From the IMG/VR virus record IMGVR_UViG_3300023110_002336, positions 1 through 64,000 of that record: a stretch of DNA of 64,000 nt. One strand, written 5' to 3'. Below the pieces are notes generated by a model. The model was not told the DNA's origin. It saw nothing but the letters and a program-made list of their open reading frames with translations, and did no database searches. This document shows positions 8,148 through 37,754 of the stretch, in pieces. The position numbers and the translations under genes were made by a program. Source of the stretch: a virus. Each line of letters opens with the position of its first letter. Within the stretch, counting starts at the first letter, position 1.

Positions 8148-8151
8148 TTAT

Positions 8152-15106: not shown

Positions 15107-15444
15107 ACCTTATACCTTCGCCACGCAAACCACTCTCTTGTCTTAAGATAATCCAAGTCTTGGTCGTTTGAGTAGGCTTCTTGCTCAAATGGTATCATGT
15201 AGTAGGCTTGCTGTTTATCTTTATATTTAATAATTCCAACAAGATAGTAGTAGAAGTAGAGAATGTAGAACGGAATTACCAACAACTCACGCTGTTGATG
15301 GATGTGTATGGTTTCATGATTGAGGGTAGTTTCGTTCATCCATTCTCTTGAGATAATAAATGGGAAAATTGTGATTGCATATACATCAATCACAACTGAC
15401 ATAAGTTTGGTAAACCACGGAGAGACTATAAGAATAGGCTTCAT
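15103..15444 (-). CDS. Small HExxH (zincin-like) hypothetical protein
   Basis: AITIFPFII...NHETIHIHQQREL...PFEQEAY. Confidence 0.65.
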   Translation of the reverse strand: MKPILIVSPWFTKLMSVVIDVYAITIFPFIISREWMNETTLNHETIHIHQQRELLVIPFYILYFYYYLVGIIKYKDKQQAYYMIPFEQEAYSNDQDLDYLKTREWFAWRRYKV

Positions 15445-16796
15445 TAGATGTCCAACTTTAGTTTGAACGAAAGATCTTCTGCTTCTTTCTTGAGAATTGG
15501 GTTGGATAGTGTCGCAACACCAACAAGTTTCTTGTCTTCATCGTAGATCGCAACTCGGGAAACATACACTTGTCTCTCGAACGGAGCATCGAAACCGGCA
15601 TAGCTTGACGACACTGTGTTTTTGATTCTAATTGTATCCTTCTCTTGGTAAACATTAGAAGACGTTTGGTAAATCTTGTATTGTGCATCCTCATAATCAA
15701 GGAATGTGGGGTTGTTTGAGAAGTTAACTTCGCCTCTACGTGCGTGAGCATACATTGTGAGGACTTGTGTTTCAGTGTGTCCTTTGAATGAAAGATCAAA
15801 CGAGGCGGAGGTTGTTGTGTTGGAAATCCCGTCATTTGCACCAGCAGCAAAATATTTCCAAGCACCAGCAACAAACGCGCCGGGGGTTGCATCTCCTGCA
15901 CCCACAAAATCATAGGACACGCCTTCTGTAAGATCCCAGCTTCCCGTAAGAAGCAAGAATCCTTCTTCATACATCGCAACGCCTGCGACAGAACCTGAGC
16001 CTTCTGAGCCTTCTGGTCCAACTTGAATTAGCTCTCCATTATACTTGGTGTCCTGCAGTTCTCCGACCAATGTACCTGTAACATAAAACTTGAGAGACAT
16101 AGAGCCGGGTTTGATGCGTGTTCCGTAGAAGATCTTTGGAACAGAGATAAGGTTAATGGTTTGTTCATCTTTGTTCCATTGGCCAATGTTTGATGCTGAG
16201 AACTCAACAAAGTAGTGTGGTGAACGAGTGCCGTAGAAGTTAAGAGAATTCCGAAGACTACGATAGTGAGGATTAGCGGAACGAGAAACGTTGGTAATGC
16301 TACCTAGGTTACCTGCGTCTACCATCAATTCTCTTGTAATTGATGCTGACATCACATACGAAGAACCAGTAAGCACGTCTCCGTTTGCTGCTCTAACATA
16401 ATCATCCGAAACTTCCTGCATAGGACCAGAGGCAGTGATTGTATTGGTGCCAGCGGGACCCTCTACAATTGTTCTTGTTCTTCTCTTGGACTTCAAGTAT
16501 TGTTTTGAACTTGTTTTCAAAACATATGGTGTTATAAGCCTGTTGGTGCCAGTGCTGCCAGTCCAACTATCTTGATCTCCTCGGTCGCTCCAAGAAAGCT
16601 CGCCCTGACGGTCCACGTTGTATTCATACAAACTCAAGCCGCCAGAAGCAGACAGTATGTCGCTACTAAAGCTGCCGCTTTCTATTGGGCGATTATCATA
16701 ATATACTGAAGAATCATAGATAAAGAAAGTGTTATGAGGGTATGCCCTCATAGCATTTCTTATCACATCGCTTTGTCCAAACTTCTTGAGGGACAT
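15444..16796 (-). CDS. Baseplate/tail-collar-like structural protein
   Basis: C-terminal NFSNNPTF...VAIYDEDKKLVGVATLSNPILK...FKLKLDI is paralogous to the next gene and resembles tail-collar fibre C-termini. Beta-rich, with many SGS/TGS/SAS motifs. Confidence 0.65.
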   Translation of the reverse strand: MSLKKFGQSDVIRNAMRAYPHNTFFIYDSSVYYDNRPIESGSFSSDILSASGGLSLYEYNVDRQGELSWSDRGDQDSWTGSTGTNRLITPYVLKTSSKQYLKSKRRTRTIVEGPAGTNTITASGPMQEVSDDYVRAANGDVLTGSSYVMSASITRELMVDAGNLGSITNVSRSANPHYRSLRNSLNFYGTRSPHYFVEFSASNIGQWNKDEQTINLISVPKIFYGTRIKPGSMSLKFYVTGTLVGELQDTKYNGELIQVGPEGSEGSGSVAGVAMYEEGFLLLTGSWDLTEGVSYDFVGAGDATPGAFVAGAWKYFAAGANDGISNTTTSASFDLSFKGHTETQVLTMYAHARRGEVNFSNNPTFLDYEDAQYKIYQTSSNVYQEKDTIRIKNTVSSSYAGFDAPFERQVYVSRVAIYDEDKKLVGVATLSNPILKKEAEDLSFKLKLDI

Positions 16797-16805
16797 CTTG
16801 CCCTC

Positions 16806-17867
16806 CTAGTAGTCGAGCCTGACGCGGAGGGTTAGTTCGTTTGTGGGATCCTTGCGAAGTGGCTCTGAGAGCTTGGCTACGGCAAGGAGTTCGTTAGAAG
16901 AGTTGTAGAGACCGATTGTTGTAATGTATGCTAATGGTGGGCGAGAGCGTGTGTTATTCTTTACTCTGATTGAGCCGCCGCTTAGGTAGGTTGGGTTACT
17001 TGAGTAATTAAACTTGTTGTGTGGTGCTCTACAGAAATAAACCTTGGAATTAATCTCTGTTGTGTTGTTGAACTGGATGTTCTTGATTCTCTGACGAAGT
17101 GCGTCGCAAGCACCAGAAATTGCAGATCCAGTTAGAAGTGCGTCCACGGAATCGCTTCTGTAGAAATTAGATGGAGAACCAAAGTTACCACTAAATGCAG
17201 AGGCGGTGAGAACCATAATGCCAGCTTGATAGAAAACAATACCACCTGTAAGATTGTTAGCGGTATCTACAAGTACGCCATAATCCCCACCAACGGTATT
17301 CAATGTGCCACCAGTGTCTGTTACACCTGCGTCTGAGTATGTAATAGACCCAGAACCACCGTCGAATAAGTCTCCGTCAGCAACATAGCTTGAGGTCATT
17401 AGAGTAATAGACACAGAGCCTTTCTTTACTTGATCCTTAGTTAGGAGACGAGAGAAGTTTACGAAGAAAACCTCTTTCATTGGATTGTCTTCATTGAGAG
17501 TCAAGTCTGACTCAAAGAGACGAACTGTGTTAGTGGAGCCAGTGTATCCCAGAAGAACCTGAGACATTTGGTTATACATATTTATTTTCTTATTTTGCTG
17601 AATACGGTCAGAGGTTCCAGATAATGCTGAGTTTTCATCGTACCCTACTGATAGATCGAAGATGTGGTTAGCGGAAGAACTCAAGTAGGGATAATCGTAA
17701 ACAGACTGAAATTGTCCATGAGAGTAGTTTTTCACATTTGAGTCGTTGGGGAACGTGCCGTAAGTTCCGCTAACAATTGTACCTGTTAGTGGAATAACTT
17801 CGTGAAGAAGTGTTCTTGTGGTTGCTACGTCTGTTTGACCATTAATTGGTTCATAATTGATAGGCAT
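16806..17867 (-). CDS. Baseplate/tail-collar-like structural protein
   Basis: FNYSSNPTY...IGLYNSSNELLAVAKLSEPLRK...LRVRLDY; paralogue of 15444-16796. Confidence 0.65.
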   Translation of the reverse strand: MPINYEPINGQTDVATTRTLLHEVIPLTGTIVSGTYGTFPNDSNVKNYSHGQFQSVYDYPYLSSSANHIFDLSVGYDENSALSGTSDRIQQNKKINMYNQMSQVLLGYTGSTNTVRLFESDLTLNEDNPMKEVFFVNFSRLLTKDQVKKGSVSITLMTSSYVADGDLFDGGSGSITYSDAGVTDTGGTLNTVGGDYGVLVDTANNLTGGIVFYQAGIMVLTASAFSGNFGSPSNFYRSDSVDALLTGSAISGACDALRQRIKNIQFNNTTEINSKVYFCRAPHNKFNYSSNPTYLSGGSIRVKNNTRSRPPLAYITTIGLYNSSNELLAVAKLSEPLRKDPTNELTLRVRLDY

Positions 17868-17878
17868 TTAGTTCTCCG

Positions 17879-18892: not shown

Positions 18893-18910
18893 TTATTTTC
18901 CTCTCTCACA

Positions 18911-18918
18911 TAAATAGT
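18911..18918 (-). promoter_or_regulatory. Candidate late-promoter element ACTATTTA
   Basis: Sits in the 35-nt intergenic gap upstream of 18892, followed by GAGAGAGG and ATG. The same motif recurs before other virion genes. Confidence 0.55.
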
Positions 18919-18927
18919 GGCTTAAAG

Positions 18928-21900
18928 TTATTTACGCACTTCCTTTTTGAAGCCGATGTTTATATCTAGTTTTCTACCAGTTTTTTTTGATGTCAAGCGA
19001 ATCTTGAAATATCTGCCAGGGTCGCTAGTAATTAGTGGATCTGTTAGATTTGAAGATCCAAGAGAGATATTATCAATCTCAGAAACTGATGAGTTGTTCA
19101 AATCTACATTACTTGAATCTAATACTAAATGTTGTATGTTTGGCACTACATTAAACAGCTTCTTAACGACCGAAAGGGGATCTTTTGTATCGATCACAGC
19201 AAGGTCTTCTTCTGAGTGCTGCTGGAATCTTCCATAAACATACCCGCCATCGTTGATTAGTTCTGATTCAAATACAGGAGAAAATTGTCCTGCTATTCCA
19301 TTTTCGTTGAGAGAGCGGAACACATAATAATATATTGCATTGTCGCGTACTCGCTCAATAAATAAGTGGTCAGTGGGTATGTCGCCATTTTCTTGTTTCA
19401 AATCAATCGTAGTTCTCAAGTTACCAGAAAAATCATCATAACTTGTGGGCTTCGTGGTTGTTCTATATACTTCTAAGAAGCGTGGACGAGATACTGACTC
19501 TTGAGTAAGCTTTGAGATTTGGAGGAAATCGTGCCCCGTTAGATATGCGTCTTTGTTTTGAGTGTCTCTCGCATTCAAAGCGGGCGGATAGGTAACGGCA
19601 TTCATAGAGAAAGTGTCGTACTTGCAGTAGAAAGCCAATCTGTTTGACTGATCAAGAAGATGATGTGGTGTTATAACGAGATCGTTTGGTGGATGATCCA
19701 CGATTCGCATACGCTTTTCTTCCAAAGGTATCTCTACGATCTTAAGAGAAGGCTCGATTGTGATTCTAAAGTCTGCAAGATGCGGGTAATTTGAGTTGGT
19801 TTGAGAATTTGTAAAAAGCTCATTATCAGAGACTCTGCTTAACCTTAGTCTAGCCATACCAAGCATCATTCTATCTCGTGATAACTCTGCTTTTTCGCTT
19901 TCGTATTGTTGCTTTTGCTGGTTTATTGTATCTTGAATATTTTGAAATTCTTCTCTAAAAGCTACGAATTCTTCGTAGTTTCTAATAAAAAGTACATCTT
20001 CTGGTATTTCTCCACTTTCTACTTGTCCAATTATCCTCTCAAATGGAATTAAACCAAAAGTTGAAAAAATATTGTCATCTAATGTTGTTTCTTCTATGAA
20101 ATAAGGAATTCCTATAAAATTGGGATCTCCATAAAAGGTACTCAAATACAAACCAAAATAAAAATCATCACTGATTCTATATTCTCGCTCTACAATTCTT
20201 GGCTCTGTTCCACCACGTCCGTCTGGTACTTGTATTGTTTCTTCTCTCGAAAAACTAAAAACTGAATTTGCAAACTCAAGATTAGTTTCATACAAAGGAG
20301 CAATCTCATCTATTTTATCTTGCAAAACTCCCATTTCTTGGGTTAGTAGATCCATTCTTGTTTGAAGAATTGATAATTCATTAAAACCATCTAAAAGGCT
20401 CTGCCTTGTTTGTCCTGAGAACGGATCATAAAACTCCAAGCAGTAAACCTTACTAGTGCCTTCGCCTTCGGTTGCAATTTGTCTTGTAGCGACAACATCA
20501 GAAAGCTGGTATTTGTATCCCTGAACTAGGTCGTATTTGTAAACCTTGTAAGTGTAATCAGAGTTGTATTTGACCTGTGTATCCAAATAGGTTATTGCTC
20601 CATCTGCGTTATAAAACCAAATGTTTTGAATTGTGTTTTCTGTTCTCGCATCACCAGTAGGAGCGCCGCCAATCTTTTCAATTCTAAATGCGACAGTTTC
20701 GTGGTACTTGGACTCATCTGCTTGATTCAAGAAATTTTGTAAAGGATAGGTCTTTTCTGTTTCAAAATTGTTTTTTATTTTAGCAACAAAGTCATTCAAC
20801 ACGCTAAGAGATTTTTCAGTATTCTCATATCTGTATGAGCCACTAACATCGAGTGCATAATCAATCTGTTCTTGATAAGAGCCAGAATTCAACACTGCTA
20901 TGTTGTTTGTCTCCGACATTGGATTTTGGTAAGCGTATAGCAGCATAGTTGGAGCATCAACGAGCCTAACAGGAATTGTAGTCGTTGTCTCAAGAGAGCC
21001 TGTTAAAACACCAGTGCTGCTTTCGGTTTCCGTATTTACAGCGAAATTGATAGTTGCTGGTTGTAGTCGAGATTCTCCTTGGAATATCTCTTTCAATAGT
21101 TTTGTAAACTTTAGTTCGTAATTATGATCTCTTATTACTTCTCGAAAACGTCGGCTGCTGAGTCTTGGGTCTGGGTTAGCTAAATCTTGCTTGATTTCTA
21201 GTTTGTTCCCAAAAGGCATAAGAGAGTATAACTTTGATAAATCGCTATCAATAAAATCGCTGTTTAGATCTGAAGTGTCGAGGCGTGTGTCGTTATTATC
21301 ATCTAGTATATCTTCATCAAGAACAAATATATTTTCCATTCTCGTGTCTAGTGGCTTCGGAGAGTTTACATAACCACCGGTCAAAAATGTTGTAAGATTT
21401 GAATACTGATATCTTGATTGAACAATTTCGTTATTGTAACTTGGTACAAGGTAGGAAGCACTATCTAAGAGATAATAGTTTGGTGCTTGTAGTTCGCTCT
21501 CAAGGCTATTTACTTCTGACTGAAATCTCGGATAGTAGTTGAAGTATTCTGTTGTGAGGACAAGCGAGGGCTCTATGTTGTTGTTGTTTACAGCTTCTCT
21601 CGGGACATAAGGCAGCGGAGAATTGTTTGCGTGATCAGCATATACCGCCTCGTTGTATAATCCAGAGTACGTCTTGTCTGCGTATGTTCCACCGACAATG
21701 AAAGTCCTCCAGTCTTCGTCTGAGAGAAAACCGTGCCCCTCATCAACGTAAAGTCTGCTAGCATATTTGACCTTTGGTAAAATAGTGTCTGATGTGGTGT
21801 CTACTTCTGAAGCATCAACAGATTCTACGCCACCAATATCTGCAACATTTGCCTCTACAAATGAAACATCACCAGTCCTCGCCAAGTCTCCATAATAACC

Positions 21901-21978
21901 ACCAGCAGCCTGTCTCAATAACTCAGAAGAGCCAGAGAACAAGTTCAGGTCTATAATTCTAGTGGTTTTTGTGGTCAT
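18928..21978 (-). CDS. Large putative virion structural protein
   Basis: 1016 aa within the baseplate module. Fn3/Ig-like segments (YLDTQVKYNSDYTYKVY, YYYVFRSLNENG) and an internal coiled-coil insert. Confidence 0.65.
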   Translation of the reverse strand: MTTKTTRIIDLNLFSGSSELLRQAAGGYYGDLARTGDVSFVEANVADIGGVESVDASEVDTTSDTILPKVKYASRLYVDEGHGFLSDEDWRTFIVGGTYADKTYSGLYNEAVYADHANNSPLPYVPREAVNNNNIEPSLVLTTEYFNYYPRFQSEVNSLESELQAPNYYLLDSASYLVPSYNNEIVQSRYQYSNLTTFLTGGYVNSPKPLDTRMENIFVLDEDILDDNNDTRLDTSDLNSDFIDSDLSKLYSLMPFGNKLEIKQDLANPDPRLSSRRFREVIRDHNYELKFTKLLKEIFQGESRLQPATINFAVNTETESSTGVLTGSLETTTTIPVRLVDAPTMLLYAYQNPMSETNNIAVLNSGSYQEQIDYALDVSGSYRYENTEKSLSVLNDFVAKIKNNFETEKTYPLQNFLNQADESKYHETVAFRIEKIGGAPTGDARTENTIQNIWFYNADGAITYLDTQVKYNSDYTYKVYKYDLVQGYKYQLSDVVATRQIATEGEGTSKVYCLEFYDPFSGQTRQSLLDGFNELSILQTRMDLLTQEMGVLQDKIDEIAPLYETNLEFANSVFSFSREETIQVPDGRGGTEPRIVEREYRISDDFYFGLYLSTFYGDPNFIGIPYFIEETTLDDNIFSTFGLIPFERIIGQVESGEIPEDVLFIRNYEEFVAFREEFQNIQDTINQQKQQYESEKAELSRDRMMLGMARLRLSRVSDNELFTNSQTNSNYPHLADFRITIEPSLKIVEIPLEEKRMRIVDHPPNDLVITPHHLLDQSNRLAFYCKYDTFSMNAVTYPPALNARDTQNKDAYLTGHDFLQISKLTQESVSRPRFLEVYRTTTKPTSYDDFSGNLRTTIDLKQENGDIPTDHLFIERVRDNAIYYYVFRSLNENGIAGQFSPVFESELINDGGYVYGRFQQHSEEDLAVIDTKDPLSVVKKLFNVVPNIQHLVLDSSNVDLNNSSVSEIDNISLGSSNLTDPLITSDPGRYFKIRLTSKKTGRKLDINIGFKKEVRK

Positions 21979-21979
21979 A

Positions 21980-22642: not shown

Positions 22643-22646
22643 CTTA

Positions 22647-23054
22647 TTACCTCTTTAAGTTCTTCATCTTTATAGCAGATATTTTTTTATAAACTTTTGT
22701 GCTTTTTTGTTTTTTCAAAACATTCTTTCTCAACATTTGTTGATTTTCATCTCTCGCTTCATCAAAGTTGTATATAGGATCTGTAATTTCTGAGAATGGC
22801 TTTTCCAAAGAAGCTTTGTCGTTTTTTAGTCTATCGAAGTCTTGTGTTTCTAAGATGTTGGGATTTTGTACAAACTCTCTTCCCAAATCAAGATTCTTGA
22901 ATGAAAATGCGGCGGGCGTTTCTTCAATAGTTATAGAACTTTGCCCTACTGCTTCTTCCACTTCTGATACCGATAAATCCAAATCTATCTTTTTAACAAC
23001 TATGTTTAAGCTTTGTACATTGGCTAATTGTTTTTTGTTTATAAAGTCAGGCAT
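22647..23054 (-). CDS. Hypothetical protein
   Basis: 135-aa ORF with a basic C-terminus, in operon context. Confidence 0.6.
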   Translation of the reverse strand: MPDFINKKQLANVQSLNIVVKKIDLDLSVSEVEEAVGQSSITIEETPAAFSFKNLDLGREFVQNPNILETQDFDRLKNDKASLEKPFSEITDPIYNFDEARDENQQMLRKNVLKKQKSTKVYKKISAIKMKNLKR

Positions 23055-23055
23055 T

Positions 23056-29600: not shown

Positions 29601-32600
29601 CCCTCTAGCGATGGAGAATCATAGTTAGAAGCTGTCAAGTAATCTGTAAAGCTGGAGCCATTGAAGTTTCCTGTCAAGATTGCTGTTCTATCAATGAAGT
29701 TGTCAGGAGCATCCAAAATCCAACTACTTTGCGAGACAACAAGATTGAATGAGTTTGTAAATGAATTTCCTAGTTCTGCTCTATCGCTACGACTATCTCT
29801 CCAGAACTTGTTGTCGTAGCCAAGTCTCTCGCGTGAGCCGCTTGAGAATTCGTTTCTTGTGGACGGGAATAGGGTTTCAGAGTAATGGATCCAGTTTAGG
29901 CTAGAACCTTGCTGTTGAGATACTTCTAACAACTGGTCAAATGGGGTGAGTGTTGGATCTTCTTTCTCGAACACAAGGTCATTCAATTCGCGCTCGTTGA
30001 AGTAGATCTTCTCGTTGTTGTGTGTTGTCTTGAGGGAAACGTTTTGCCCGTCAACATCCATGTTGACCACAACTGGGCGACCACGGAGAGAAACCGGTGG
30101 TAGTCGGAACTCTCTGATTGTAGTTCCCTTGACTGCTGTGAGTAGGTTTTCTTTGTGTTCTCGGTCCAAGATCGGGTGATCTTTCTGGTGGAGGGCACGC
30201 CAGTTCCAGCCATATGTGTCACCACGATGGATAAGCAAAGCGTTTAGTCTCTCGCCTTCTGCGGGTGTCTGTAGTGCGCCGCTGATTGTTGGCTCGCCAA
30301 GAGTGTTTATGGCAGAACCAGTCTTATCGAGAACAAGCAAGTCCAATCTTGTTGTGTTCTGGTAGATTCCAGATGTAGCAGCAGATGCTGACACATAATC
30401 AAAGAACGGGTAGTAGTTACCTGTGATCTCGTAGTAAGGTGCGATAGGCGAGTTTACCTGCATGAAGCCAGAGTAGCGTGGCTCGCAAGCACCTGTATGA
30501 GTAATTGAGTGTGCAAACCAAGAGTATTGGCGATCAGAGCGTGGGATCTGGTGGTGTAGATTTAGGTTGTCGTACTTTTGGTCGCAGACAACTTCTGTAA
30601 GTGTATTTGTAACAGTTTCACTAAATGTATCAAAAGTCGATGCCGTGATTTGTAGCTGACCTGCTGTTGTGACCGCTGCTTCAAAGTCATTAATGCCGCC
30701 TACATCTACGACTGCATCACCGTCAGATAGATTACCTACTGATGCATCTCCAGTAGAATCACCCATTCTGAGATAGAAATACATGTCACTAGATTTTACA
30801 GAATCTGGATCCCTATCTATGTCGTAATACGAGCCAGAATTATACAAACTATCTTTGTTAGCATCCGAAAGTTGCCCATTCCAGAAGCCAAACTCATCAA
30901 TTAGATAGTCTCTGCCTTGGTTGTTGACATTAGGGTTCCAAATTGTTCCCCTACCGATAGCGTGCCTATGGTTAGAGCCGTAAGTGATGTTAATTGGATC
31001 TGAGAAAGAACCGATTGGGGTTGAGTTACTTGCAGTATTGTTAATCCAAATCTCAGGCTTATTGCTTGAATCTCCGTCCCAACGTATAAAAATGTGGTTC
31101 CATTGATCTCTGGTAACTGTATTAGCACTCAAGTATCTTATGTCGCTAGATTTTGAACTCTCATCAGCATCAGAAAAAGCAATTGCTATTTGAGAATCGG
31201 GACTGTTATTTGTTAGAGAAATCTGGAGTGGTGAAAATTCATCATCTAATGAACCAGTAGGGACATTTAACGAGAAAATGTGCTTAACAACATTGCTACC
31301 GATTGTCTTATCATCATAAATCCAGAAAGAAAAAGTCATCTCTCTAGAAGTTAAATCAAAGTTACGAGTAGATAAGCTTTTAGCGTCTGTTGTGTCTGTA
31401 AAACGTAAAGAATTTTGATTTTGATAGGTTGTGGTGGTAATTGTTTCTACTTCTCTAGCCTTTATGACATTGTTTCTATGAACTTTGTGGAATGATGGCG
31501 CTTCGGTAAACGCATCGTCAGCTTTTCCGGGAGAATTTAAGTCAGGGGTGTTTCTTGGCACGTTGGAGAAGTCAGTGTCGCTCTCAACGTGAGAATCACG
31601 GAAGAATCTAGTAGCATGACGTGCAGCCAAGTTTGTAAAACCAAAGTCTTTGCCAGTGTGATCGAAACTTCTAATTCCTGTTGTCTGAGAAACAATCGAA
31701 GAAGTTACGCCTTGGAATGGGCGACGTGAAGTAAGGTTTCTGTTGTTAATTGTGTTGTAGACTGAGAAGTCACCAGAACGGAAGTCCTTGAAGGCAGGAG
31801 TCATAGACTCGAAAGAGCCGGGAGATGAGAAGCGGTTGACTATGACAGTCTTATTTTTGTAGTCTCCGGACCCTGTTAGGTAGCCAGCGTTGTAGTCGTC
31901 AACGAATGTAAAGTGTCCGTTTTTCCCTCTTTCGATGTCAAGAATAGTCTTGACAACATCAGCGCCTTCTGCTACAGTCGGTAGTGTTGGCTGTTCGTCA
32001 ATGAATGCTCTTGGGTTAGAGTAGCCGCCTACAATATGGACAACATCGTAGTTATGGTTGTAGTTGCCAAGAATGGTTGAACCAGTTCTGTGCTGAATGT
32101 TGCGAATGTTGACAGGGCGCTTGGCGGTTTCGTCGCGGAAGTAAGTTGCCTTCATAGCACCAGTCATGGGGTATGGTGTTTGCCCTTCTTCGTTGGCTTC
32201 GGGGTAAGGGTAATCTGCGCCGACCATGCCGATAGCACCGTCAGTGTTGGGGCACTTGCCTAGGGCAATCTTCCAAGCCTCAGGGCGGTTTAGGTAGTTG
32301 TCTCCACCAGTGTTAAGTTTGATGTGACGAGATTGATGCCCACCAACAGCGTAGTTAGTGAACGGACCCTGCATTGGGCGTTCCATGTCGGGACCATAGA
32401 CATCGTTGTGGAGGTTTGTGATTTCAATGCTTGCTGTTGCTCTCGCGATAACATGCGCGTTGTAGCCAGAACGAACAGAGGAAGAGACGATGTTGAATGG
32501 GAATGCCTTTGATGATTTAACGTTCTTGTAGCCGAGTCCATCTTCCCAATCGCGACCGTGTTGAACGAGAATGTTTCTCTTGACCTTAGCTGCTGGGTTC

Positions 32601-35600
32601 TCGGGAGGATCGCTTGTGTCTTCGAGAGCAACAAGATCATCTGTAAATCCGAGAAGAACGTTCTTTGGAATAAAGATGTTGTCGGTTTGGTTTATTGGAC
32701 CTGCGGGATGTAGAGCGGTATAGGTGTAGTGAATGTCCTTGTCGTCTGTAAAGTTGACGCCGCCCTTGATTTCTCTTATTCTCTTTGACTCGAACACTTG
32801 ACCCTTGGATAGAGTGCGGTACTTGAAGTTTGAGCGTGAGTATTTGACGCCTGCGTTAGTGAAACTTCTACCAACACCGCCATTAGTCTGGTTTGTGCTA
32901 ACATTGCGAATCTGAGTTCTGTCGGAGTCCACAGCAGCATCACCAGAAGAAATTGTACCAGCACGCTCAGCACGCTCCTTCCACCAGTTTGAGTTATCGC
33001 GTTCTAATCCGCTTACGGGGGCGTGGTTTCTATCCCAGTTGTAGCGCAACTCTTCTGCACCGAAAGCAACGCCCTCGGTTGAAGAAGTGAAAGCCATCAT
33101 CGGGATTCTGTGTTGGAACTTAGCACGCTCCAAAACGTGTGATTCTACTGTGTTTAGAATATCTGATGTGTATTCAGCAGACGCTGGGATAAGCTGCCCA
33201 ATGATCTGAGATACAGCATCATCGAACCACTTGTAGTAATCTACGAAACGTTCTACTTCTGTGACGTTTGTGACTCTGCGGAAGAAGACTTCTCTTAGCT
33301 TGTTGAGACCCTTGTACTCCATCCTGTACATATGAACAGGGTGTCCAATTAGGTTATGGAAATCATTAACGCCTGCGAAGAAGTTTAACATCTCCTCGGA
33401 GATTGCGTTATACATACTCTTTTCAAGAACGTGGTGGTAGTTGGGAATTGTATCAACAGAATCAAAAAGTTTATCGTCATCTGTTCTGATCTGAACAAGA
33501 TTGTCCCCGATTACCAACTCTGGGTTGATAAACTGATGCGTGTTGACTTCTTTTTTGAGAACAACGTCGGTTGCGTTAGCCTCGAAACCAAATCCAACGC
33601 CGGGGTATAGATAGCCAGAGATGGCCCCTAGTTCTCCGTATTCTCCGCTTCTAGCCTCGGTAGATCCAGAACTGATATCTGTGACCGAGAAGCCGCCTGT
33701 TCCATCAGCGCCAGTTACGTTGCCGAACTCGTAGTTGAGAGCGAGCGTGTGACGGTTTAATGTTTTGTTGTTATCGTTGTCTAAAGCAGATAAATGTTGG
33801 CTGGCACTAACAATTCCATAATTTTCAAAATCAAACGCATGTTGCTGTAAAGAAATTTCGTCAAGGTATTTCGTCCAGTATCTTGTAGCAGTTACAAGAA
33901 CATCTGATTTGTATTGTAACGCACCTGTGACGTTTGTTCTATGAGCACCAACGAAGATTCTCTTTGGAGACTTGAGAAGATCTTCTGCACTTGTTGCTGA
34001 ACCGGTTACCTTGAAGCTGTTTCTGATCTCTCCAAGCCTCTGATTGTATCCTGAGAATTCTAGGGTGTAACCAGAGGCTGCTACACCTTCAACAGAGCCT
34101 GTTAGTCCGAGACTATCCGGCTTGATACGAACTGAAAGATTCCAATCTTCATCATCATAGACGCCGTGGAAGAGGCTACTTGAGATTTCGCTTGTGAGCA
34201 TAGAAGAAGAAAGAACAAATTTTACATTCTTTGAGTAGTTCTCGTCTCTCTCGGCATAAACGTAGAAGCTTGGGTCGTATACATCGGTCCCTGCTGTATC
34301 AGCACTAGCAGAGTGAAGACCGAATAGCGATACTCTTGTGAAATTGCGATCGAAAGTATCGATAAGCTTGATGAACTTGGGGAATATAACGTCAACTTCG
34401 TGGGTCAATCCGTAGCGAAGTTCGTGAGAATCCAATCCAGAGCCATAAATGTAGCCCAATTGTGTTGAATCAGTAGAACCAGACGAGTAAACAACCGCAC
34501 CAAGATGGTCTTTGTTGTTGAAATTAACAGAAGACTTTTTCAAAGTTGTCTGTTTTAGATTATTTTCAAGTTCATATGTGAAGTTGTTAGCGTAAGTATT
34601 GAATCTTACTAGCTTATCATCGATGTTGAAAGCGCGAAGAACGTTTCTAACAGCCTTTTCGGTACCCTTTGACTTGAAAATGTAAGTTAAGTTGTTGTAA
34701 AGGTTAAGATAAATAAGGTTTTTAACTTCTTCTAGGTCATTCTCGAAGGCTTCGGATTCGTTTCTATTGAGAAATTTCTCCATAACAGTCGCATCTACGA
34801 AGATTTCTGGTGTTTCTAGACCCAAAGAAGCTGGCATGTGCTTCGCAAATGGGATTGGTTTATAGGAGGAACTGGTGTAAATTGGTGATTTGAAAGTGGA
34901 AACAGCCTCGATTTGGAGGTATAATTTGTCAAAATATGTACCAATTATATGACTTAGGTACTTGAAGTTGGTGTTTCCAAGGTCCTCGTGCTCTTCCATG
35001 ATCCAACTTGGCATGAAAGTCGCAAAAGCCGCGTTATTGCGCATGTCATGGTCTGCACCCTTGCTTATGAGACTTGTTTTGAGACTAGATACGCTTGGAT
35101 GGGTAGCATAAATGATAGGGTCAAGGTACTCGCTTGTAGCAGCGCTTGCGGATACAATTGCAGAACCAGTGTTACGAGTGCTTGTGGTGTAGCCGGTGAA
35201 GGTACCGTTAGAAATGCGACCAGAGTAGTCCAAAACTATCTTATCTGTCGCCTCTACGCCTGTTATGCCCTCGTTAAATTTGTAGTAGACCCCAAGGGTA
35301 GTGTTAGAAATGTCGGTGTTAGAACCGCCTCTGACTTGACCAAACCAGTTTCTACCGATCTCTTGTGCTGTTCTCTCAACTTTCCAGAAACGGAACTCGT
35401 CCATAGAACCTGAGAAATAAAGGTGCCCTTCATCATGAGAACCAGAGCCAATGTAAGCAAGGGTCTCTGGTTGTGTAAGAGTGTTTACACCGTCGGTACC
35501 AAGAGTTGTTGTCTGATCGAGAACACCATTGAGGTAGAACTTGGTTGTGATACCAGCACTTGCGCTCTTGAACGAGACAGCATAGTGATTCCAGTTTTCT

Positions 35601-36346
35601 ATAGATGAGGTATCTGGAGTGGAACCAATTTGTTCATCTCCAAAAATATCAGAGTGCGAGGCGCTAAGAGTGGCAAAGAAAGGTGAGCCAGCAGAGTCAG
35701 AAAGATATAAGGTAAATTCGTCACCACCAGAAGAGTTGGTGAGATGAAAGATTGCTCTTTTTTCGCCAGCACCCAACTCATGATTCTTAAGCCAGAATTC
35801 AATAGTGACACCCTTTTGGAAATCACACTTTAGGTTCGACTCTCTGGTTCCCTGACCGTAATCAGATGGCAAACCCTCAGTAGTGTATAAATCTTCATCG
35901 TAGATATTGGCAGTCTCTCTTTGGGAAGACTTTGGATCCTTAAACAGTCCCTTCGTAGAAGTCGAACTGATTGTGTGTGGACCGCCCTTGAAAGAGATGT
36001 AAGAGTTTGAAAAGTTGACGTATCCGTTGGTGCGAGGATAGAGAGTATTGAATATAAATTTCTCAATATCCAGAGACTTGTTGTAAAACTCGTTGTATTC
36101 TGCGTCAGACCCGTCGTATGGATAGAAATCAATGATACGATCGATAGCAGACTGGTAGTAAAGCTCGGCAGAACCAAAACGAGCAAAAGAGAGAGGATCA
36201 TTGTAATCTATCTGTGGCTCGAAAGTATTCTGCTTTTCAGAGATAGCGGCTACGTTTCTTGACGACTCTGCGTCAGTAAAAGCATCTTTCTGGTTTGTGT
36301 CTGAAACGTAGTTTGTTGAACGCTCGAATAAATCTCTAGTACTCAT
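26600..36346 (-). CDS. Giant baseplate wedge-like protein with LamG/concanavalin-like domains
   Basis: 3248 aa. LamG motifs (VTIEFW...WNHYAVSF...FYLNG...MDEFRFW and MTFSFW...QWNHIFIRW...IDEFGFW) and a wedge/tail-protein-I-like motif IFKSKGTEKAVRNVL. Downstream of gp25 and gp6. Confidence 0.75.
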   Translation of the reverse strand: MSTRDLFERSTNYVSDTNQKDAFTDAESSRNVAAISEKQNTFEPQIDYNDPLSFARFGSAELYYQSAIDRIIDFYPYDGSDAEYNEFYNKSLDIEKFIFNTLYPRTNGYVNFSNSYISFKGGPHTISSTSTKGLFKDPKSSQRETANIYDEDLYTTEGLPSDYGQGTRESNLKCDFQKGVTIEFWLKNHELGAGEKRAIFHLTNSSGGDEFTLYLSDSAGSPFFATLSASHSDIFGDEQIGSTPDTSSIENWNHYAVSFKSASAGITTKFYLNGVLDQTTTLGTDGVNTLTQPETLAYIGSGSHDEGHLYFSGSMDEFRFWKVERTAQEIGRNWFGQVRGGSNTDISNTTLGVYYKFNEGITGVEATDKIVLDYSGRISNGTFTGYTTSTRNTGSAIVSASAATSEYLDPIIYATHPSVSSLKTSLISKGADHDMRNNAAFATFMPSWIMEEHEDLGNTNFKYLSHIIGTYFDKLYLQIEAVSTFKSPIYTSSSYKPIPFAKHMPASLGLETPEIFVDATVMEKFLNRNESEAFENDLEEVKNLIYLNLYNNLTYIFKSKGTEKAVRNVLRAFNIDDKLVRFNTYANNFTYELENNLKQTTLKKSSVNFNNKDHLGAVVYSSGSTDSTQLGYIYGSGLDSHELRYGLTHEVDVIFPKFIKLIDTFDRNFTRVSLFGLHSASADTAGTDVYDPSFYVYAERDENYSKNVKFVLSSSMLTSEISSSLFHGVYDDEDWNLSVRIKPDSLGLTGSVEGVAASGYTLEFSGYNQRLGEIRNSFKVTGSATSAEDLLKSPKRIFVGAHRTNVTGALQYKSDVLVTATRYWTKYLDEISLQQHAFDFENYGIVSASQHLSALDNDNNKTLNRHTLALNYEFGNVTGADGTGGFSVTDISSGSTEARSGEYGELGAISGYLYPGVGFGFEANATDVVLKKEVNTHQFINPELVIGDNLVQIRTDDDKLFDSVDTIPNYHHVLEKSMYNAISEEMLNFFAGVNDFHNLIGHPVHMYRMEYKGLNKLREVFFRRVTNVTEVERFVDYYKWFDDAVSQIIGQLIPASAEYTSDILNTVESHVLERAKFQHRIPMMAFTSSTEGVAFGAEELRYNWDRNHAPVSGLERDNSNWWKERAERAGTISSGDAAVDSDRTQIRNVSTNQTNGGVGRSFTNAGVKYSRSNFKYRTLSKGQVFESKRIREIKGGVNFTDDKDIHYTYTALHPAGPINQTDNIFIPKNVLLGFTDDLVALEDTSDPPENPAAKVKRNILVQHGRDWEDGLGYKNVKSSKAFPFNIVSSSVRSGYNAHVIARATASIEITNLHNDVYGPDMERPMQGPFTNYAVGGHQSRHIKLNTGGDNYLNRPEAWKIALGKCPNTDGAIGMVGADYPYPEANEEGQTPYPMTGAMKATYFRDETAKRPVNIRNIQHRTGSTILGNYNHNYDVVHIVGGYSNPRAFIDEQPTLPTVAEGADVVKTILDIERGKNGHFTFVDDYNAGYLTGSGDYKNKTVIVNRFSSPGSFESMTPAFKDFRSGDFSVYNTINNRNLTSRRPFQGVTSSIVSQTTGIRSFDHTGKDFGFTNLAARHATRFFRDSHVESDTDFSNVPRNTPDLNSPGKADDAFTEAPSFHKVHRNNVIKAREVETITTTTYQNQNSLRFTDTTDAKSLSTRNFDLTSREMTFSFWIYDDKTIGSNVVKHIFSLNVPTGSLDDEFSPLQISLTNNSPDSQIAIAFSDADESSKSSDIRYLSANTVTRDQWNHIFIRWDGDSSNKPEIWINNTASNSTPIGSFSDPINITYGSNHRHAIGRGTIWNPNVNNQGRDYLIDEFGFWNGQLSDANKDSLYNSGSYYDIDRDPDSVKSSDMYFYLRMGDSTGDASVGNLSDGDAVVDVGGINDFEAAVTTAGQLQITASTFDTFSETVTNTLTEVVCDQKYDNLNLHHQIPRSDRQYSWFAHSITHTGACEPRYSGFMQVNSPIAPYYEITGNYYPFFDYVSASAATSGIYQNTTRLDLLVLDKTGSAINTLGEPTISGALQTPAEGERLNALLIHRGDTYGWNWRALHQKDHPILDREHKENLLTAVKGTTIREFRLPPVSLRGRPVVVNMDVDGQNVSLKTTHNNEKIYFNERELNDLVFEKEDPTLTPFDQLLEVSQQQGSSLNWIHYSETLFPSTRNEFSSGSRERLGYDNKFWRDSRSDRAELGNSFTNSFNLVVSQSSWILDAPDNFIDRTAILTGNFNGSSFTDYLTASNYDSPSLEGNAGELQNLYLMAYVKSSTPIYLPTNSTKAILNAASALYSRKQNLTSPNSVVSRTGFAKTSSSPDSFTDQIGIGAGEALWEAGTYATINVKSGSSFITSSYRSEPWFDEYGDFREELQLAARDYAIIPEFRISEHINEYVKGGTFNKFNFDTFEIPGTTISSSQQNFYKDYSNSDFLREFASIKDKSGLNAKEIMLTCKAAVRFNPYKGFYPAQRTLDLVSQFSSSFAAGFSATYPKLGGGTNTVGGFNGSVSGIYRPVIQPLFSPGILYNSIKSGIAVDYPVVNNKKKISTFNFTGSNADAENYMLIPITSSEVSLDDYNPQNSYWDLRVPFETMIEPGKYIDKVEFLDFEPHPSASINITASLDTSVSDGIYELMAKNFFGQTGDFFLKNSSYTKIESDLIQDGLKFKDGDVFAARLKIRKSHNGKRFYNSESGSTGDNEYFSTNGALATRSTGSNVISLSASFPIPQDPAHNSEFQETFTMYSRPTAFGPSISGRNSDSSENHADAFLSGTLDSLEGYNWAYTPPYYHGESWVDFIFRPDSTKTYTLEDILTETEAIYWRVDPGRIIEGTADSNLDGYSNLQRALIDHGYDASSGISGQQAIYGGSVINKNAMQLDSSLNLFGVERVPKKRKDKFGNTILDQNELAGKRWVIQPKWETPMLNFANVKEDSNNITYPTNFSESVPRGMWHQFGEMPTDPDTGVFLEIGDIPNDWLKYHYDVINMSSSYNNNDPLGSGSTAYLDYQSLSDLFGFSRSQKKDSAKVRLGEIADKREVYEAVVAIPYILEANEDYGNAKTDDDKNRKKFINIPRQRFRAALKEREGSQDGDSLEAAGESIRKMVQKMKRYVLPPQFDFINFDEIDPIVMYFFEFKYEFDKDDLSYIWQNLAPRDYKKITFQEAKVAHDLMNNELLDESNLMDNPNLRWMVFKVKQKATKDYYDLIPPQVKAARPTSNLDKPETDKDDEYLQFNWPYDYLSFVELVKLEADVLYKADQEEPQ

Positions 36347-37754
36347 AATCTTCTACTCTGAATAGGAATTTCTGGTCTTGCTCAAGCCAGCTTTGGCGTT
36401 GAGAGTCATAGAACGCAAGCTTGATGCCATACTCATAGCCGGGCTCAAGCAAGGACATATCAAGGTTGAAATAATTTCCTGAGACATCGTAAGAAAGGAG
36501 TGTTTGAAGTTCTGATCCTGTGCCGTGTGGAATAGCATTGTAACCATCTAAGACTCTATAAACTCTGTATGATGCGCTAGGAATAATAGTATTTTCTATT
36601 TCACTTGACGCTACTGTGTAAATAGTTGGGGACCAGTTTTTGCTTCGGACATAAACGTTGAAGCGTGCTTCCTCTTCAGAGAAGTATTTGTTTCTAAGAT
36701 TCTTGATCTTTGTGATGTAACGGTTGTTACCAGTTGATACAGCAGCAGCACCGAAGGTTTGAGGAGAAATTGTTCCCGTAAAGTATTCAGTGCCCTCAGA
36801 ATACCAAACATCACGTAAGGTTGTGTAGGTTCCTGTGATACAAACTGAGCAAGAGTATATGCCTGTTGACACATAGCCGCCTGTTGCTGGTGTGTTGATT
36901 TCTTGCGTTAATGCGGTGCCGCCGAGGGTCTGGTAAAGATCGACGTAGATTTCTCCTGTGCCAATCGCTGGGATGTTGGTCAATTGGCCACGAACGTAGT
37001 TGTAAAGATAGAGTGTGTTGAGGTTGTCTGCTGCTGGTGCGAGAGAAGAAGACATGTAGAAGTCGCCTCTATCATCTTGTGTTGAAGAGTTCCAACGAGC
37101 TTCGATTACAGGCTTCTTGAAGAAGTATTGTGTGCCTCTCGCAAAGAAGCGCTTGGTGTAATACGATGTTGTGTCGCTTTCTACTGAGGAAGTAAGTCTT
37201 ATACCGATACCATAGTTGTCTTTTGTGCCATCGATCCATTGTTCAACAAGATCAGAAATGTCTATTTCTAAATCCTCCAAACCGCTATCAAAAGTCTGAG
37301 TAAACACAGGAGTTTCATGATAATCACCACCAGCCGAACTCCATGCAGTGGTAGTAGATGCTGAAACCCAGTTTGATTTACCAATGTCTTTGTAGTTCTC
37401 CAAATCTAAACCATCGCCCTCATTCCAAGCTCTTGAAATTGCTTGTGCTACTACTGTGAAGTTTTTTGGGACAGTCTGAGAAGTTTCAGCATTGTATAGA
37501 CGCAAGTAAAAACTCACACTGCCAGAAGCAGGAATTACACCGGCTGTTCTATCTGAAGATATTGTAGATACGCTGAATTGGGTAAGAACGCGAGAGAGTT
37601 CCGAAGAAGTCAAAGAAGCGCGTCCATAAATTGAAAAAACTTCACTAACATCTGCCTGACCCATGTTTGAGCCAGTTGCTCTTACTCCTAGCCCATCTTT
37701 GAAGGCATTTGTAATTGTATTATCGGCACTTGCCACATAACGTCTAATAGCCAT
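36336..37754 (-). CDS. DNRLRE/CBM96-like domain virion protein
   Basis: LRLY...AWNEG...NW...WSSAGGDY...EIDISDLVEQW...NYGIGIR...KPVIEARW pattern. Confidence 0.6.
   Translation of the reverse strand: MAIRRYVASADNTITNAFKDGLGVRATGSNMGQADVSEVFSIYGRASLTSSELSRVLTQFSVSTISSDRTAGVIPASGSVSFYLRLYNAETSQTVPKNFTVVAQAISRAWNEGDGLDLENYKDIGKSNWVSASTTTAWSSAGGDYHETPVFTQTFDSGLEDLEIDISDLVEQWIDGTKDNYGIGIRLTSSVESDTTSYYTKRFFARGTQYFFKKPVIEARWNSSTQDDRGDFYMSSSLAPAADNLNTLYLYNYVRGQLTNIPAIGTGEIYVDLYQTLGGTALTQEINTPATGGYVSTGIYSCSVCITGTYTTLRDVWYSEGTEYFTGTISPQTFGAAAVSTGNNRYITKIKNLRNKYFSEEEARFNVYVRSKNWSPTIYTVASSEIENTIIPSASYRVYRVLDGYNAIPHGTGSELQTLLSYDVSGNYFNLDMSLLEPGYEYGIKLAFYDSQRQSWLEQDQKFLFRVEDYEY

What the first reader, a model, noticed from the sequence alone, without database searches (positions are those of the whole stretch)
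15444..37754. [S/T]-[G/A/S]-S tripeptide concentrated in outer-baseplate proteins: candidate sequon of a phage virion-glycosylation system
Seen (manual counts): 13 copies in the 450-aa protein, 6 in the 353-aa, 8 in the 472-aa, 4 in the 321-aa, 5 in the 1016-aa and about 44 in the 3248-aa protein. They often follow a hydrophobic residue (LTGS, VSAS, ITAS, FSGS, LSSS). I found none in the terminase (526 aa) or Mre11-Rad50 (>1000 aa), about 1 in gp6 and about 2 in the 2118-aa protein. My rough composition-based expectation is several-fold below the observed counts. The copies are dispersed through unrelated folds rather than tandem. Established: some viruses glycosylate their virions with self-encoded glycosyltransferases (chloroviruses, some mycobacteriophages), and bacterial O-glycosylation can use short Ser/Thr sequons. 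Inference: the glycan cluster at 50285-64000 decorates surface-exposed virion proteins at this motif, forming a sequon-directed glycan shield.
Basis: partly seen in the sequence, partly recalled or inferred. Interest (0 to 1): 0.82.

Follow-up and report, generated by a model that had tools for sequence, protein, structure and literature searches.

The report
Serine tripeptide tag on phage tails
The outer tail proteins of this marine T4-like phage and its relatives carry a short serine motif three to four times more often than chance, and evolution keeps its density while moving its positions, so it is probably a tag for attaching sugars, though no sugar has been seen.

Summary
All six counts reproduce (13, 6, 5, 4, 8, 46). 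[ST]-[GAS]-S occurs 82 times against 23-28 expected, even when shuffling within 10-residue blocks (z about 11). Thr at position 3 gives no excess (18 vs 17.9). A hydrophobic residue before the motif gives the strongest excess (46 vs 7.2). Codons are varied and the copies are dispersed.

The motif is conserved in 151 of 151 diverse homologs and in 80 of 80 viral-contig relatives. The giant protein's orthologs keep their density (46/53/54 copies) while the positions turn over. The excess is specific to one clade. It is about 4-fold in this phage and in the cultured phages Mel-JY01 and immuto, and 3-fold in RM378. It is absent from T4, KVP40, ACP17, S-PM2 and P-SSM2.

All four enriched phages share an adjacent pair of GT4 glycosyltransferase genes, found in only four of about 50,700 phage records' worth of distinct phages. 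One relative lacking the second gene has only a weak excess.

The sequon reading is partly supported. It remains confounded with ancestry, HTVC008M is intermediate without the pair, immuto's capsid protein is not enriched, and a structural role is not excluded. No modification has been shown.

This scan had already noted the same motif on at least six other genomes.

The parts
15444..16796 (-). 450-aa outer tail/baseplate protein with 13 motif copies. It contains an Ig-like beta-sandwich and has no Pfam or PHROG family.
   Evidence: 13 vs 2.7. 8 of 13 sites carry the motif in at least 110 of 120 close homologs. 151 of 151 distant representatives are at least 2-fold enriched. Model pLDDT 84. 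Weak Ig-like matches, Z up to 6. No families.
16806..17867 (-). 353-aa paralog of the 450-aa protein (shared C-terminal domain) with 6 copies.
   Evidence: 6 vs 1.9, p 0.011. BLASTP to the 450-aa protein E 2e-8. Orthologs in L001 and L002 have 10 vs 1.9 and 8 vs 1.6.
18928..21978 (-). 1016-aa structural protein with 5 copies. Weak case.
   Evidence: 5 vs 2.3, p 0.078; p 0.057 with block shuffles. Not significant alone.
25638..26603 (-). 321-aa protein next to the giant protein, with 4 copies.
   Evidence: 4 vs 0.5, p 0.002.
26600..36346 (-). 3248-aa giant baseplate/fibre protein with 46 dispersed copies.
   Evidence: 46 vs 12.5; 46 vs 16.5 with block shuffles. Orthologs have 53 and 54 copies with positional turnover.
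36336..37754 (-). 472-aa protein directly downstream of gp6, with 8 copies.
   Evidence: 8 vs 2.7, p 0.006. Positional orthologs: 650 aa with 18 vs 5.6 in G008, 480 aa with 9 vs 3.7 in G001.
37754..39550 (-). gp6-type baseplate wedge protein. Not enriched. Used as the anchor for cross-phage comparison.
   Evidence: phrog_219 and phrog_6. 1 vs 1.5. Anchor.
50285..61561 (-). Variable sugar-gene block: two nucleotide-sugar dehydrogenases, two SDR epimerase/dehydratases, sulfotransferase-like, methyltransferase-like and ATP-grasp genes, plus GT11, GT4 and GT2 transferases.
   Evidence: Pfam; NCBIfam. Apart from weak SDR matches in immuto, these genes have no counterparts in Mel-JY01 or immuto.
61548..63614 (-). 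GT4-B: 688-aa divergent GT4 glycosyltransferase. It is the conserved partner of GT4-A and carries an extra C-terminal part of about 290 aa.
   Evidence: PF00534 4e-6. Orthologs in Mel-JY01, immuto and RM378. Found in 17 of 20 long related contigs. E-x7-E kept in 3 of 4 aligned sequences.
63590..64000 (-). C-terminal end of GT4-A, a 422-aa GT4 glycosyltransferase. The gene runs to 64858 on the contig, beyond the window.
   Evidence: PF00534 3e-14 and PF20706 6e-11. tblastn finds it in only 7 of 50,697 phage records, which are 4 phages. Found in 17 of 20 long related contigs. E-x7-E kept in 4 of 4.

Best explanation
Hydrophobic-[S/T]-[G/A/S]-S is a selected, protein-level tag on the outer baseplate and fibre proteins of one clade of aquatic T4-type myoviruses. 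The most likely mechanism is that the final Ser is O-glycosylated in the infected cell's cytoplasm by phage enzymes. The conserved adjacent pair GT4-A/GT4-B is the best candidate for attaching the first sugar. The variable neighbouring genes (dehydrogenases, epimerases, GT2/GT4/GT11, methyl- and sulfo-transferase-like) would then extend and decorate the glycan differently in different strains.

Shown: the motif's specificity, its conservation, density maintained with positional turnover, restriction to one clade, and co-occurrence with the GT4 pair.

Inferred: that the motif is modified at all, that the modification is a sugar, that the third Ser is the acceptor, and that the GT4 pair is the enzyme.
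For: 1. Specificity typical of an enzyme site. Ser is required at position 3 (Thr version 18 vs 17.9). Only G, A or S is allowed at position 2. S and T are interchangeable at position 1. Asp directly after the Ser is 0 of 82 vs 5.8 expected.
2. Within-class substitutions at conserved sites, for example SAS/TAS/SSS/TSS in 125 of 147 sequences.
3. Density kept while sites move. Giant-protein orthologs have 46, 53 and 54 copies, each about 3 times expected. At 47% identity only 14 of 46 sites share a column. Private sites alone exceed whole-protein chance (25 vs 16.4; 32 vs 16.5), while three control motifs do not. In the 450 family, lineage-specific sites are 321 vs 222 expected, with controls at 0.89, 0.94 and 0.48.
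4. Clade restriction. In the 40 kb downstream of gp6 the hydrophobic-preceded form is 4.1-fold (own), 4.0 (Mel-JY01) and 4.6 (immuto), against 0.85-1.3 in S-PM2, P-SSM2, KVP40 and ACP17. T4 is 0.98 and RM378 3.06. The hosts span three phyla, so the responsible factor should be phage-encoded.
5. GT4-A and GT4-B are the only enzyme-type genes of the sugar region shared by all enriched phages. GT4-A occurs in 4 phages among 50,697 records. LR756508.1 has GT4-A but no GT4-B and shows only 1.9-fold, z 2.3.
6. No lipid-carrier priming transferase (PF02397, PF00953) in 0 of 5 genomes, including 4 complete relatives, with the controls positive.
7. Nucleoside LC-MS of immuto DNA showed canonical dA, dC and dT plus fdPreQ1 and no mention of glycosylated bases (passages of 10.1101/2023.04.13.536721). 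That makes DNA an unlikely acceptor there.
8. 11 of 13 position-3 serines are in coil, against 51% of the protein's other serines.
Against: - No chemical evidence of any modification exists.
- The GT4 pair is a core gene pair of the clade (17 of 20 long contigs, 6 of 6 complete). All 80 relatives keep the motif. Co-occurrence is therefore effectively a single evolutionary event, with one weak natural contrast (LR756508.1).
- HTVC008M has a 2.3-fold excess (z 5-6) without either GT4 gene, although it has its own annotated glycosyltransferase and sugar genes.
- P-SSM2 has a GT4 but no excess.
- Hydrophobic residues at -4 to -1 and the position at strand ends (6 of 13) also fit a structural cap.
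- Immuto's 1053-aa tail spike uses [ST][AG]S[YF] as a tandem repeat unit with 60 copies, which could be a fibre-shaft building block.
- Most sites in the 450 family (997 of 1515) lie in ten conserved columns.
- GT4 enzymes have many kinds of acceptor. The best PDB and NCBIfam matches are small-molecule or lipid glycosyltransferases such as BshA and MshA.
- Solvent exposure could not be computed because model coordinates are not exposed.
Confidence: 0.45

Rival explanations
1. Structural motif. Hydrophobic-[ST]-[GAS]-S is a strand-terminating cap or turn, or a trimer-axis packing unit, typical of the baseplate and fibre architecture of this clade. It is inherited with these proteins and is not modified. 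The sugar genes would then serve another acceptor such as the host envelope, a lipid or a small molecule.
For: - Hydrophobic run at -4 to -1.
- 6 of 13 sites directly follow a beta-strand in the model.
- 997 of 1515 sites in the 450 family lie in ten conserved columns.
- Immuto's tail spike has tandem [ST][AG]S[YF] repeats spaced 5-9 residues apart.
- HTVC008M has a 2.3-fold excess without the GT4 pair.
- The GT4-A best matches are non-protein glycosyltransferases.
Against: - No excess in T4, KVP40, ACP17, S-PM2 or P-SSM2 baseplate and fibre proteins, including homologous gp6-neighbour modules.
- The motif occurs in proteins with no detectable similarity to each other.
- Typical turn formers N and D at position 2 are not enriched, and Thr at position 3 is excluded.
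- Positions turn over while density is kept, and private sites exceed chance.
- The excess persists in the poorly conserved part of the family, 171 vs 75 at 31% identity.
Confidence: 0.3
2. The motif is a tag for a different phage-encoded trans-acting factor. This could be another serine modification such as phosphorylation or acylation, or a dedicated assembly chaperone that binds the extended peptide before folding.
For: The same specificity, turnover and clade restriction as for the main explanation. Buried-type hydrophobic residues just before the site suggest recognition of the unfolded chain. The window's contig is only about 50% complete by CheckV, so other enzymes may lie in the unseen half.
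Against: No candidate kinase, acyltransferase or chaperone is shared by the enriched phages in the part compared. Apart from structural and DNA-metabolism genes, only the GT4 pair, a PD-(D/E)XK nuclease and PhoH are shared.
Confidence: 0.14
3. An artefact of composition or low complexity: Ser/Thr/Gly-rich tail proteins produce the tripeptide by chance.
For: The enriched proteins are rich in Ser and Thr (14.7-21%). Control T4-type phages show a mild 1.1-1.6-fold excess shared by the Thr version. Mel-JY01's collagen-like 805-aa protein has 47 copies vs 40 expected.
Against: 82 vs 28 even with 10-residue block shuffles, where the maximum of 500 shuffles was 43. The Thr version is at chance (18 vs 17.9) and the reverse motif with Thr is 10 vs 9.9. 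151 of 151 homologs are enriched.
Confidence: 0.01

Closest known systems
Virion O-glycosylation of mycobacteriophages by phage-encoded glycosyltransferases (Freeman et al. 2023; the paper is not held; seen only as summarised in a passage of PMC12619734)
   Same: Phage-encoded glycosyltransferases are proposed to decorate the phage's own structural proteins in the cytoplasm.
   Different: In that system the glycans sit at the C-termini of capsid and tail-tube subunits (PMC12619734 passage). Here the motif is dispersed inside outer baseplate and fibre proteins, the capsid protein of immuto is not enriched, a short defined motif is involved, and nothing has been shown chemically.
GtfA/GtfB priming of serine-rich repeat adhesins in Gram-positive bacteria (passages of PMC6973325)
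   Same: Two adjacent GT-B-type glycosyltransferase genes are conserved while a variable set of further transferases gives different glycans. The proposed action is cytoplasmic O-glycosylation of serines in small-residue contexts (S-A-S-like). Immuto's spike even has serine-rich tandem repeats.
   Different: The DUF1975 domain that defines GtfA/GtfB was not found by Pfam in either protein. Similarity to GtfA structures is generic (E 0.013-0.055). GT4-B keeps the E-x7-E signature in 3 of 4 sequences, so it is not an obviously dead partner. The window's targets are folded proteins with dispersed sites, not long repeat tracts. There is no accessory Sec export.
Chlorovirus capsid glycosylation by virus-encoded cytoplasmic glycosyltransferases at non-standard sequons
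   Same: A virus-encoded, host-independent glycosylation machinery with its own site rules. A chlorovirus GT4 (PDB 3oy2, B736L) is among the sequence matches of GT4-A (E 2.5e-5).
   Different: That system is N-linked on the major capsid protein of a eukaryotic virus. Here a Ser motif sits on the tail proteins of a bacteriophage.
Bacterial lipoprotein lipobox [LVI][ASTVI][GAS]C (recalled)
   Same: The residue preferences at the three positions before the modified residue are nearly identical: hydrophobic, then S/T, then G/A/S.
   Different: The defining Cys is replaced by Ser in all 82 copies. The sites are internal and multiple, with no signal peptide. I treat this as a coincidence of small-residue preferences.

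Membership tests
Mycobacteriophage-type virion glycosylation | Phage encodes its own glycosyltransferases | tested here: met
   GT2, GT4 (three genes) and GT11 by Pfam.
Mycobacteriophage-type virion glycosylation | Glycans on C-terminal tails of capsid and tail-tube subunits (as summarised in PMC12619734) | tested here: not met
   Motif copies are internal and dispersed. Immuto's capsid protein has 3 vs 1.9. The window's own capsid and tube genes are not on the contig part examined.
Mycobacteriophage-type virion glycosylation | Glycan demonstrated on virion proteins | not testable with these tools
   Needs mass spectrometry or glycan staining.
GtfA/GtfB two-protein O-GlcNAc transferase of serine-rich repeat proteins | Two adjacent, conserved GT-B glycosyltransferase-like genes | tested here: met
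   GT4-A and GT4-B are adjacent in own, Mel-JY01, immuto and RM378, and in 17 of 20 long contigs.
GtfA/GtfB two-protein O-GlcNAc transferase of serine-rich repeat proteins | DUF1975 domain mediating partner and acceptor binding (PMC6973325 passage) | tested here: not met
   Pfam scans of both proteins list no DUF1975 at E up to 0.01 and 0.05.
GtfA/GtfB two-protein O-GlcNAc transferase of serine-rich repeat proteins | One partner catalytically inactive and acting as a chaperone | tested here: inconclusive
   The E-x7-E signature (recalled as the GT4 hallmark) is kept in GT4-A in 4 of 4 sequences and in GT4-B in 3 of 4, lost in RM378.
GtfA/GtfB two-protein O-GlcNAc transferase of serine-rich repeat proteins | Acceptor is a long serine-rich tandem repeat region | tested here: not met
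   The window's sites are dispersed and aperiodic. Only immuto's tail spike has tandem repeats.
Bacteroidota general O-glycosylation sequon D-[ST]-[AILVMT] (recalled) | Asp immediately before the acceptor Ser/Thr | tested here: not met
   Position 2 must be G, A or S, and [ST]DS is 4 vs 7.0. The hosts of the enriched phages span three phyla.
Lipoprotein lipobox | Invariant Cys as the modified residue, following a signal peptide | tested here: not met
   All 82 copies have Ser by definition and are internal.
Phage DNA glycosyltransferases (T4 alpha/beta-gt type or hypermodification) | Glycosylated nucleosides in virion DNA | tested here: inconclusive
   For immuto only: LC-MS showed dA, dC, dT and fdPreQ1, and the text holds no word beginning 'glycosyl'. 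GT4-A does match Pfam's GT4-conflict family at 6e-11. Nothing is known for the window's own phage.

The most novel reading that the evidence does not exclude
A widespread clade of aquatic T4-type phages, infecting at least Bacteroidota, Cyanobacteria and Rhodothermota, runs its own sequon-directed serine O-glycosylation system for tail and baseplate proteins. A conserved pair of GT4 enzymes reads hydrophobic-[ST]-[GAS]-S and primes the last Ser. Strain-variable sugar islands then build different glycans, giving phage 'serotypes' on the host-contacting end of the virion. Sites drift like the sequons of viral glycan shields.
Probability: 0.4. Interest if true: 0.85.

Novelty: new variant of a known kind. 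Interest (0 to 1): 0.7.

Why it matters
Self-glycosylation of phage particles is known from only a few cases, and none has a defined short sequon or targets the baseplate and fibres, the parts that touch the host. If this motif is a sugar-attachment site, there would be a simple sequence rule for predicting modified sites in thousands of uncultured marine phage proteins. The large sugar-gene islands of marine phages are usually read as host-surface remodelling genes, and this would give them a function. It would also add a new variable layer to host recognition and to evasion of host or grazer defences.

Tried and rejected
- PHROGs and Pfam gave no family for the six enriched proteins.
- tblastn of the 450-aa protein against 50,697 phage records found nothing.
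- The first AlphaFold run, with a shallow alignment (all rows at least 68% identical), failed at pLDDT 33. The second, with 109 diverse rows, worked.
- Foldseek against the PDB gave no match at E up to 0.001. The VIA-align wide search gave only Z up to 6 to Ig-like domains. No fold is assigned.
- A DNA-level origin is rejected because the codons are varied.
- Tandem or internal repeats are rejected for the window's proteins.
- The third gene conserved next to the GT4 pair is a PD-(D/E)XK nuclease, not a sugar gene.
- I looked for natural loss of the motif among relatives and found none in 80 loci.
- I looked for long contigs lacking the GT4 pair and found 3 of 20. By synteny (the pair lies 42-48 kb upstream of the 450-aa gene) its expected place in all three is off or at the contig end. 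So the claim in earlier notes that relatives without the sugar island lack the motif could not be reproduced or refuted on this family.
- NCBIfam gave no specific enzyme names beyond nucleotide-sugar dehydrogenase.
- Literature: five searches listed no paper describing this motif or glycosylated tail or baseplate proteins in such phages. 'Mel-JY01' occurs in no held paper. Freeman et al. 2023 is not held.
- I did not ask for supplementary files. Those of 10.1101/2023.04.13.536721 may hold fuller nucleoside data for immuto.


Full report
**What the window is.** All genes lie on the minus strand of a 90.6-kb viral contig that CheckV rates about 50% complete. It is a distant T4-type myovirus.
- The terminase is 43-44% identical to those of Microcystis phage Mel-JY01, Flavobacterium phage immuto and the uncultured phage LR756508.1, and about 32% identical to cyanophage terminases.
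- Reading along the genes: a sugar-gene cluster (50285 to 64858 on the contig), an M23-peptidase protein, a 2118-aa protein, gp25-like and gp6-like wedge proteins, the proteins of the finding, then a small protease-like gene, a RuvC-like resolvase, a primase, an SbcCD-type fusion, the terminase and the portal.

**The observation.**
- Against 2000 whole-protein shuffles, five of the six proteins are individually significant. The 1016-aa protein is not (5 vs 2.3, p 0.078).
- Pooled, [ST][GAS]S occurs 82 times against 22.9 expected (z 12.8).
- Shuffling only within blocks of 10, 15, 20, 30 or 50 residues leaves 82 against 25.7-28.0 (z 10.8-11.7; the highest of 500 shuffles was 51). Local Ser-rich patches are therefore not the cause.
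- The pattern is narrow. With Thr in the last place it is at chance (18 vs 17.9). With any residue other than G, A or S in the middle it is at chance (69 vs 76.4). N or D in the middle gives nothing.
- A hydrophobic residue in front raises the excess to 46 vs 7.2 (z 14.8).
- Asp never follows the last Ser (0 of 82, 5.8 expected), and D/E is favoured one place further on.
- Codons are varied. Spacing is irregular, and the proteins are unrelated apart from a domain shared by the 450- and 353-aa proteins.
- No other ORF on the contig shows a comparable excess.

**Conservation.** The 450-aa protein belongs to a large family from metagenomes, with more than 2300 hits at E up to 0.001 among 8000 scored candidates and 815 representatives in the exhaustive search.
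- Among 120 close homologs, the copy number is 9-16 against about 3 expected. Eight of the 13 reference sites carry the motif in at least 110 of 120.
- Among 151 representatives at roughly 35-70% identity, all 151 are at least 2-fold enriched (1515 vs 362 in total; Thr version 336 vs 260). The conserved sites vary almost only inside the class, for example SAS 78, TAS 21, SSS 15, TSS 11 of 147 at one site.
- The excess persists in the least conserved stretch (171 vs 75 at 31% mean identity).
- In 80 of 80 related viral-contig loci, the 450/353 pair is 2.5-5.8-fold enriched.

**Turnover.**
- In the 450 family, 997 of 1515 sites lie in ten conserved columns. Sites in rare columns outside those neighbourhoods are still in excess (321 vs 222), whereas three control motifs are at 0.89, 0.94 and 0.48 of expectation.
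- The giant protein is more telling. Orthologs from two related contigs have 53 and 54 copies against the window's 46, each about three times expected.
- Against the 47%-identical ortholog, only 14 of 46 sites share a column (21 within four columns). The private sites alone exceed the chance expectation for the whole protein (25 vs 16.4 and 32 vs 16.5).
- For [ST][GAS]T, [ST][NDQ]S and [ST][GAS][NDG], the private sites are at or below expectation, apart from 16 vs 11.8 for the Thr motif in one ortholog.
- So selection keeps the number of motifs, not only particular positions.

**Where the sites sit.** One confident model exists, for the 450-aa protein (pLDDT 84, pTM 0.75).
- The last Ser is in coil at 11 of 13 sites, against 51% of the protein's 39 other serines.
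- At 6 of 13 sites it directly follows a beta-strand, against 18%.
- This is a small sample, and exposure itself could not be computed.

**Which phages have it.** I compared proteins chosen by rules that do not use the motif.
- Rule 1: proteins of at least 300 aa with at least 14.5% Ser+Thr, tested with 20-residue block shuffles. The hydrophobic-preceded motif is 3.78-fold (own), 3.86 (Mel-JY01), 3.57 (immuto) and 3.06 (RM378), z 7.7-13.8, while the Thr version is 0.68-1.42.
  - HTVC008M is 2.31 (z 6.4).
  - S-PM2 is 1.35, P-SSM2 1.45, ACP17 1.45, KVP40 1.56 and T4 0.98.
- Rule 2: all proteins of at least 300 aa in the 40 kb downstream of gp6. Own 4.10, Mel-JY01 4.04, immuto 4.61, LR756508.1 1.92 (z 2.3), HTVC008M 2.28, S-PM2 1.26, P-SSM2 0.98, KVP40 1.32, ACP17 0.85.
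- None of 20 T4 structural proteins tested individually is enriched.
- In immuto the capsid protein is not enriched and the sheath only modestly. A 373-aa protein among the fibre genes has 17 vs 2.9.

**The candidate enzyme.**
- Of the window's sugar genes, only the two at the far end have counterparts in both Mel-JY01 and immuto. These are the 688-aa GT4-B and the 422-aa GT4-A, adjacent and in the same order, followed by a PD-(D/E)XK nuclease.
- RM378 has the same pair.
- Among 50,697 phage records, GT4-A is found in 7 records, which are 4 phages: immuto, Mel-JY01, LR756508.1 and RM378. GT4-B is found by tblastn only in immuto and Mel-JY01, and in RM378 by profile.
- LR756508.1, whose gp6 is as close to the window's as immuto's, has GT4-A but no GT4-B across its whole 484 kb, and it has the weak excess.
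- None of S-PM2, ACP17, KVP40, HTVC008M or P-SSM2 has either gene.
- Among 20 related contigs of at least 100 kb, both genes are present in 17, including 6 of 6 rated at least 90% complete.
- Both proteins keep the E-x7-E signature that I recall as the GT4 hallmark, except RM378's GT4-B.
- Neither family of lipid-carrier priming transferase is present in the window's contig or in four complete relatives, with the control genomes positive. This fits direct transfer to an acceptor in the cytoplasm.
- For immuto, published nucleoside analysis leaves little room for a glycosylated base.

**What speaks against the sequon reading.**
- The link to the GT4 pair is a clade trait with no clean natural knock-out.
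- HTVC008M shows the same kind of dispersed copies at half the strength without the pair, though it has another annotated glycosyltransferase beside a UDP-glucose dehydrogenase, a methyltransferase and a carbamoyltransferase.
- P-SSM2 has a GT4 and no excess.
- The hydrophobic context and the strand-end position would suit a structural cap.
- Immuto's 1053-aa tail spike uses the element as a tandem repeat, with 60 copies spaced 5-9 residues apart, ahead of a YadA-head-like part.
- GT4-A's nearest characterised relatives act on small molecules or lipids.
- Mel-JY01's 805-aa collagen-like fibre shows that some high counts are pure composition (47 vs 40).

**Comparison with known systems.**
- The closest phage precedent is mycobacteriophage virion glycosylation, known to me here only through a citing passage. 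It differs in target proteins and in site type.
- The closest mechanistic parallel is the GtfA/GtfB pair that primes serine-rich repeat adhesins while variable further transferases extend the glycan. However, its defining DUF1975 domain is absent here, so this is a likeness in design, not family membership.

**Earlier notes of this scan.** The scan had already recorded the same motif on at least six other genomes, with similar verdicts. I treated these notes as leads. I tried their claim that relatives without the sugar island lack the motif, and could neither reproduce nor refute it on this family.

**Verdict.** It is most likely a serine modification tag, probably for sugars, read by phage enzymes (confidence 0.45). 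A clade-specific structural motif is the main rival (0.3). Three cultured phages now allow a direct test.

Noticed in passing
window 15103-15444 (-): A 113-aa gene directly downstream of the 450-aa gene matches phrog_15610 'protease' (E 1e-30). Its role next to the tail genes is unknown.
   Followed up: no
window 61548-62417 (-), residues about 400-688 of GT4-B: GT4-B carries an extra C-terminal part of about 290 aa that Mel-JY01 (455 aa) and immuto (436 aa) lack. It has a faint choline-kinase-like match (E 0.057). Some related contigs also have long forms of 656-702 aa.
   Followed up: partly
L007 35287-38448 (immuto tail spike, 1053 aa): The N-terminal half consists of short-period [ST][AG]S[YF] repeats with 60 motif copies. 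The C-terminal part resembles the head repeats of trimeric autotransporter adhesins (BpaC E 6e-10; YadA_head).
   Followed up: partly
Mel-JY01 record 4747-8430 (my ORF call; L019): A 1227-aa protein with a GT4-B-like domain (profile E 5e-20) is encoded between fibre genes. Its neighbours include a collagen-like 805-aa protein and a 508-aa fibre with 24 motif copies vs 7.2 expected.
   Followed up: partly
Mel-JY01 record 83441-84932: GT4-A appears as two ORFs (190 and 302 aa) in my ORF call, and as two pieces with two annotated glycosyltransferases in tblastn. It may be split or frameshifted.
   Followed up: no
window 50285-51130 (-): The 281-aa nucleotide-sugar dehydrogenase ORF matches the family profile only from about position 63-65 onward. 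Either the start is miscalled or the gene lacks part of its NAD-binding domain. A second, full-length copy lies at 58216-59319.
   Followed up: no
G000 contig 65671-68341 (L038 4671-7341): Beyond the window lie a metallopeptidase-like 230-aa gene (weak ATLF/M90 matches), a fatty-acid-hydroxylase-family gene (176 aa) and a PIN-PhoH fusion (443 aa).
   Followed up: no
HTVC008M record 33435-54905 and 125017-132312: The Pelagibacter phage has a 2.3-fold excess of the same motif in the proteins after gp6, and a separate small sugar cluster with an unrelated annotated glycosyltransferase. It may be a second, independent instance.
   Followed up: partly
RM378 record 64825-67547, 74262-75968, 77415-78503: Four RM378 proteins are individually enriched (8 vs 1.7, 6 vs 1.2, 4 vs 1.0, 3 vs 0.5). 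I did not check their annotated functions.
   Followed up: no
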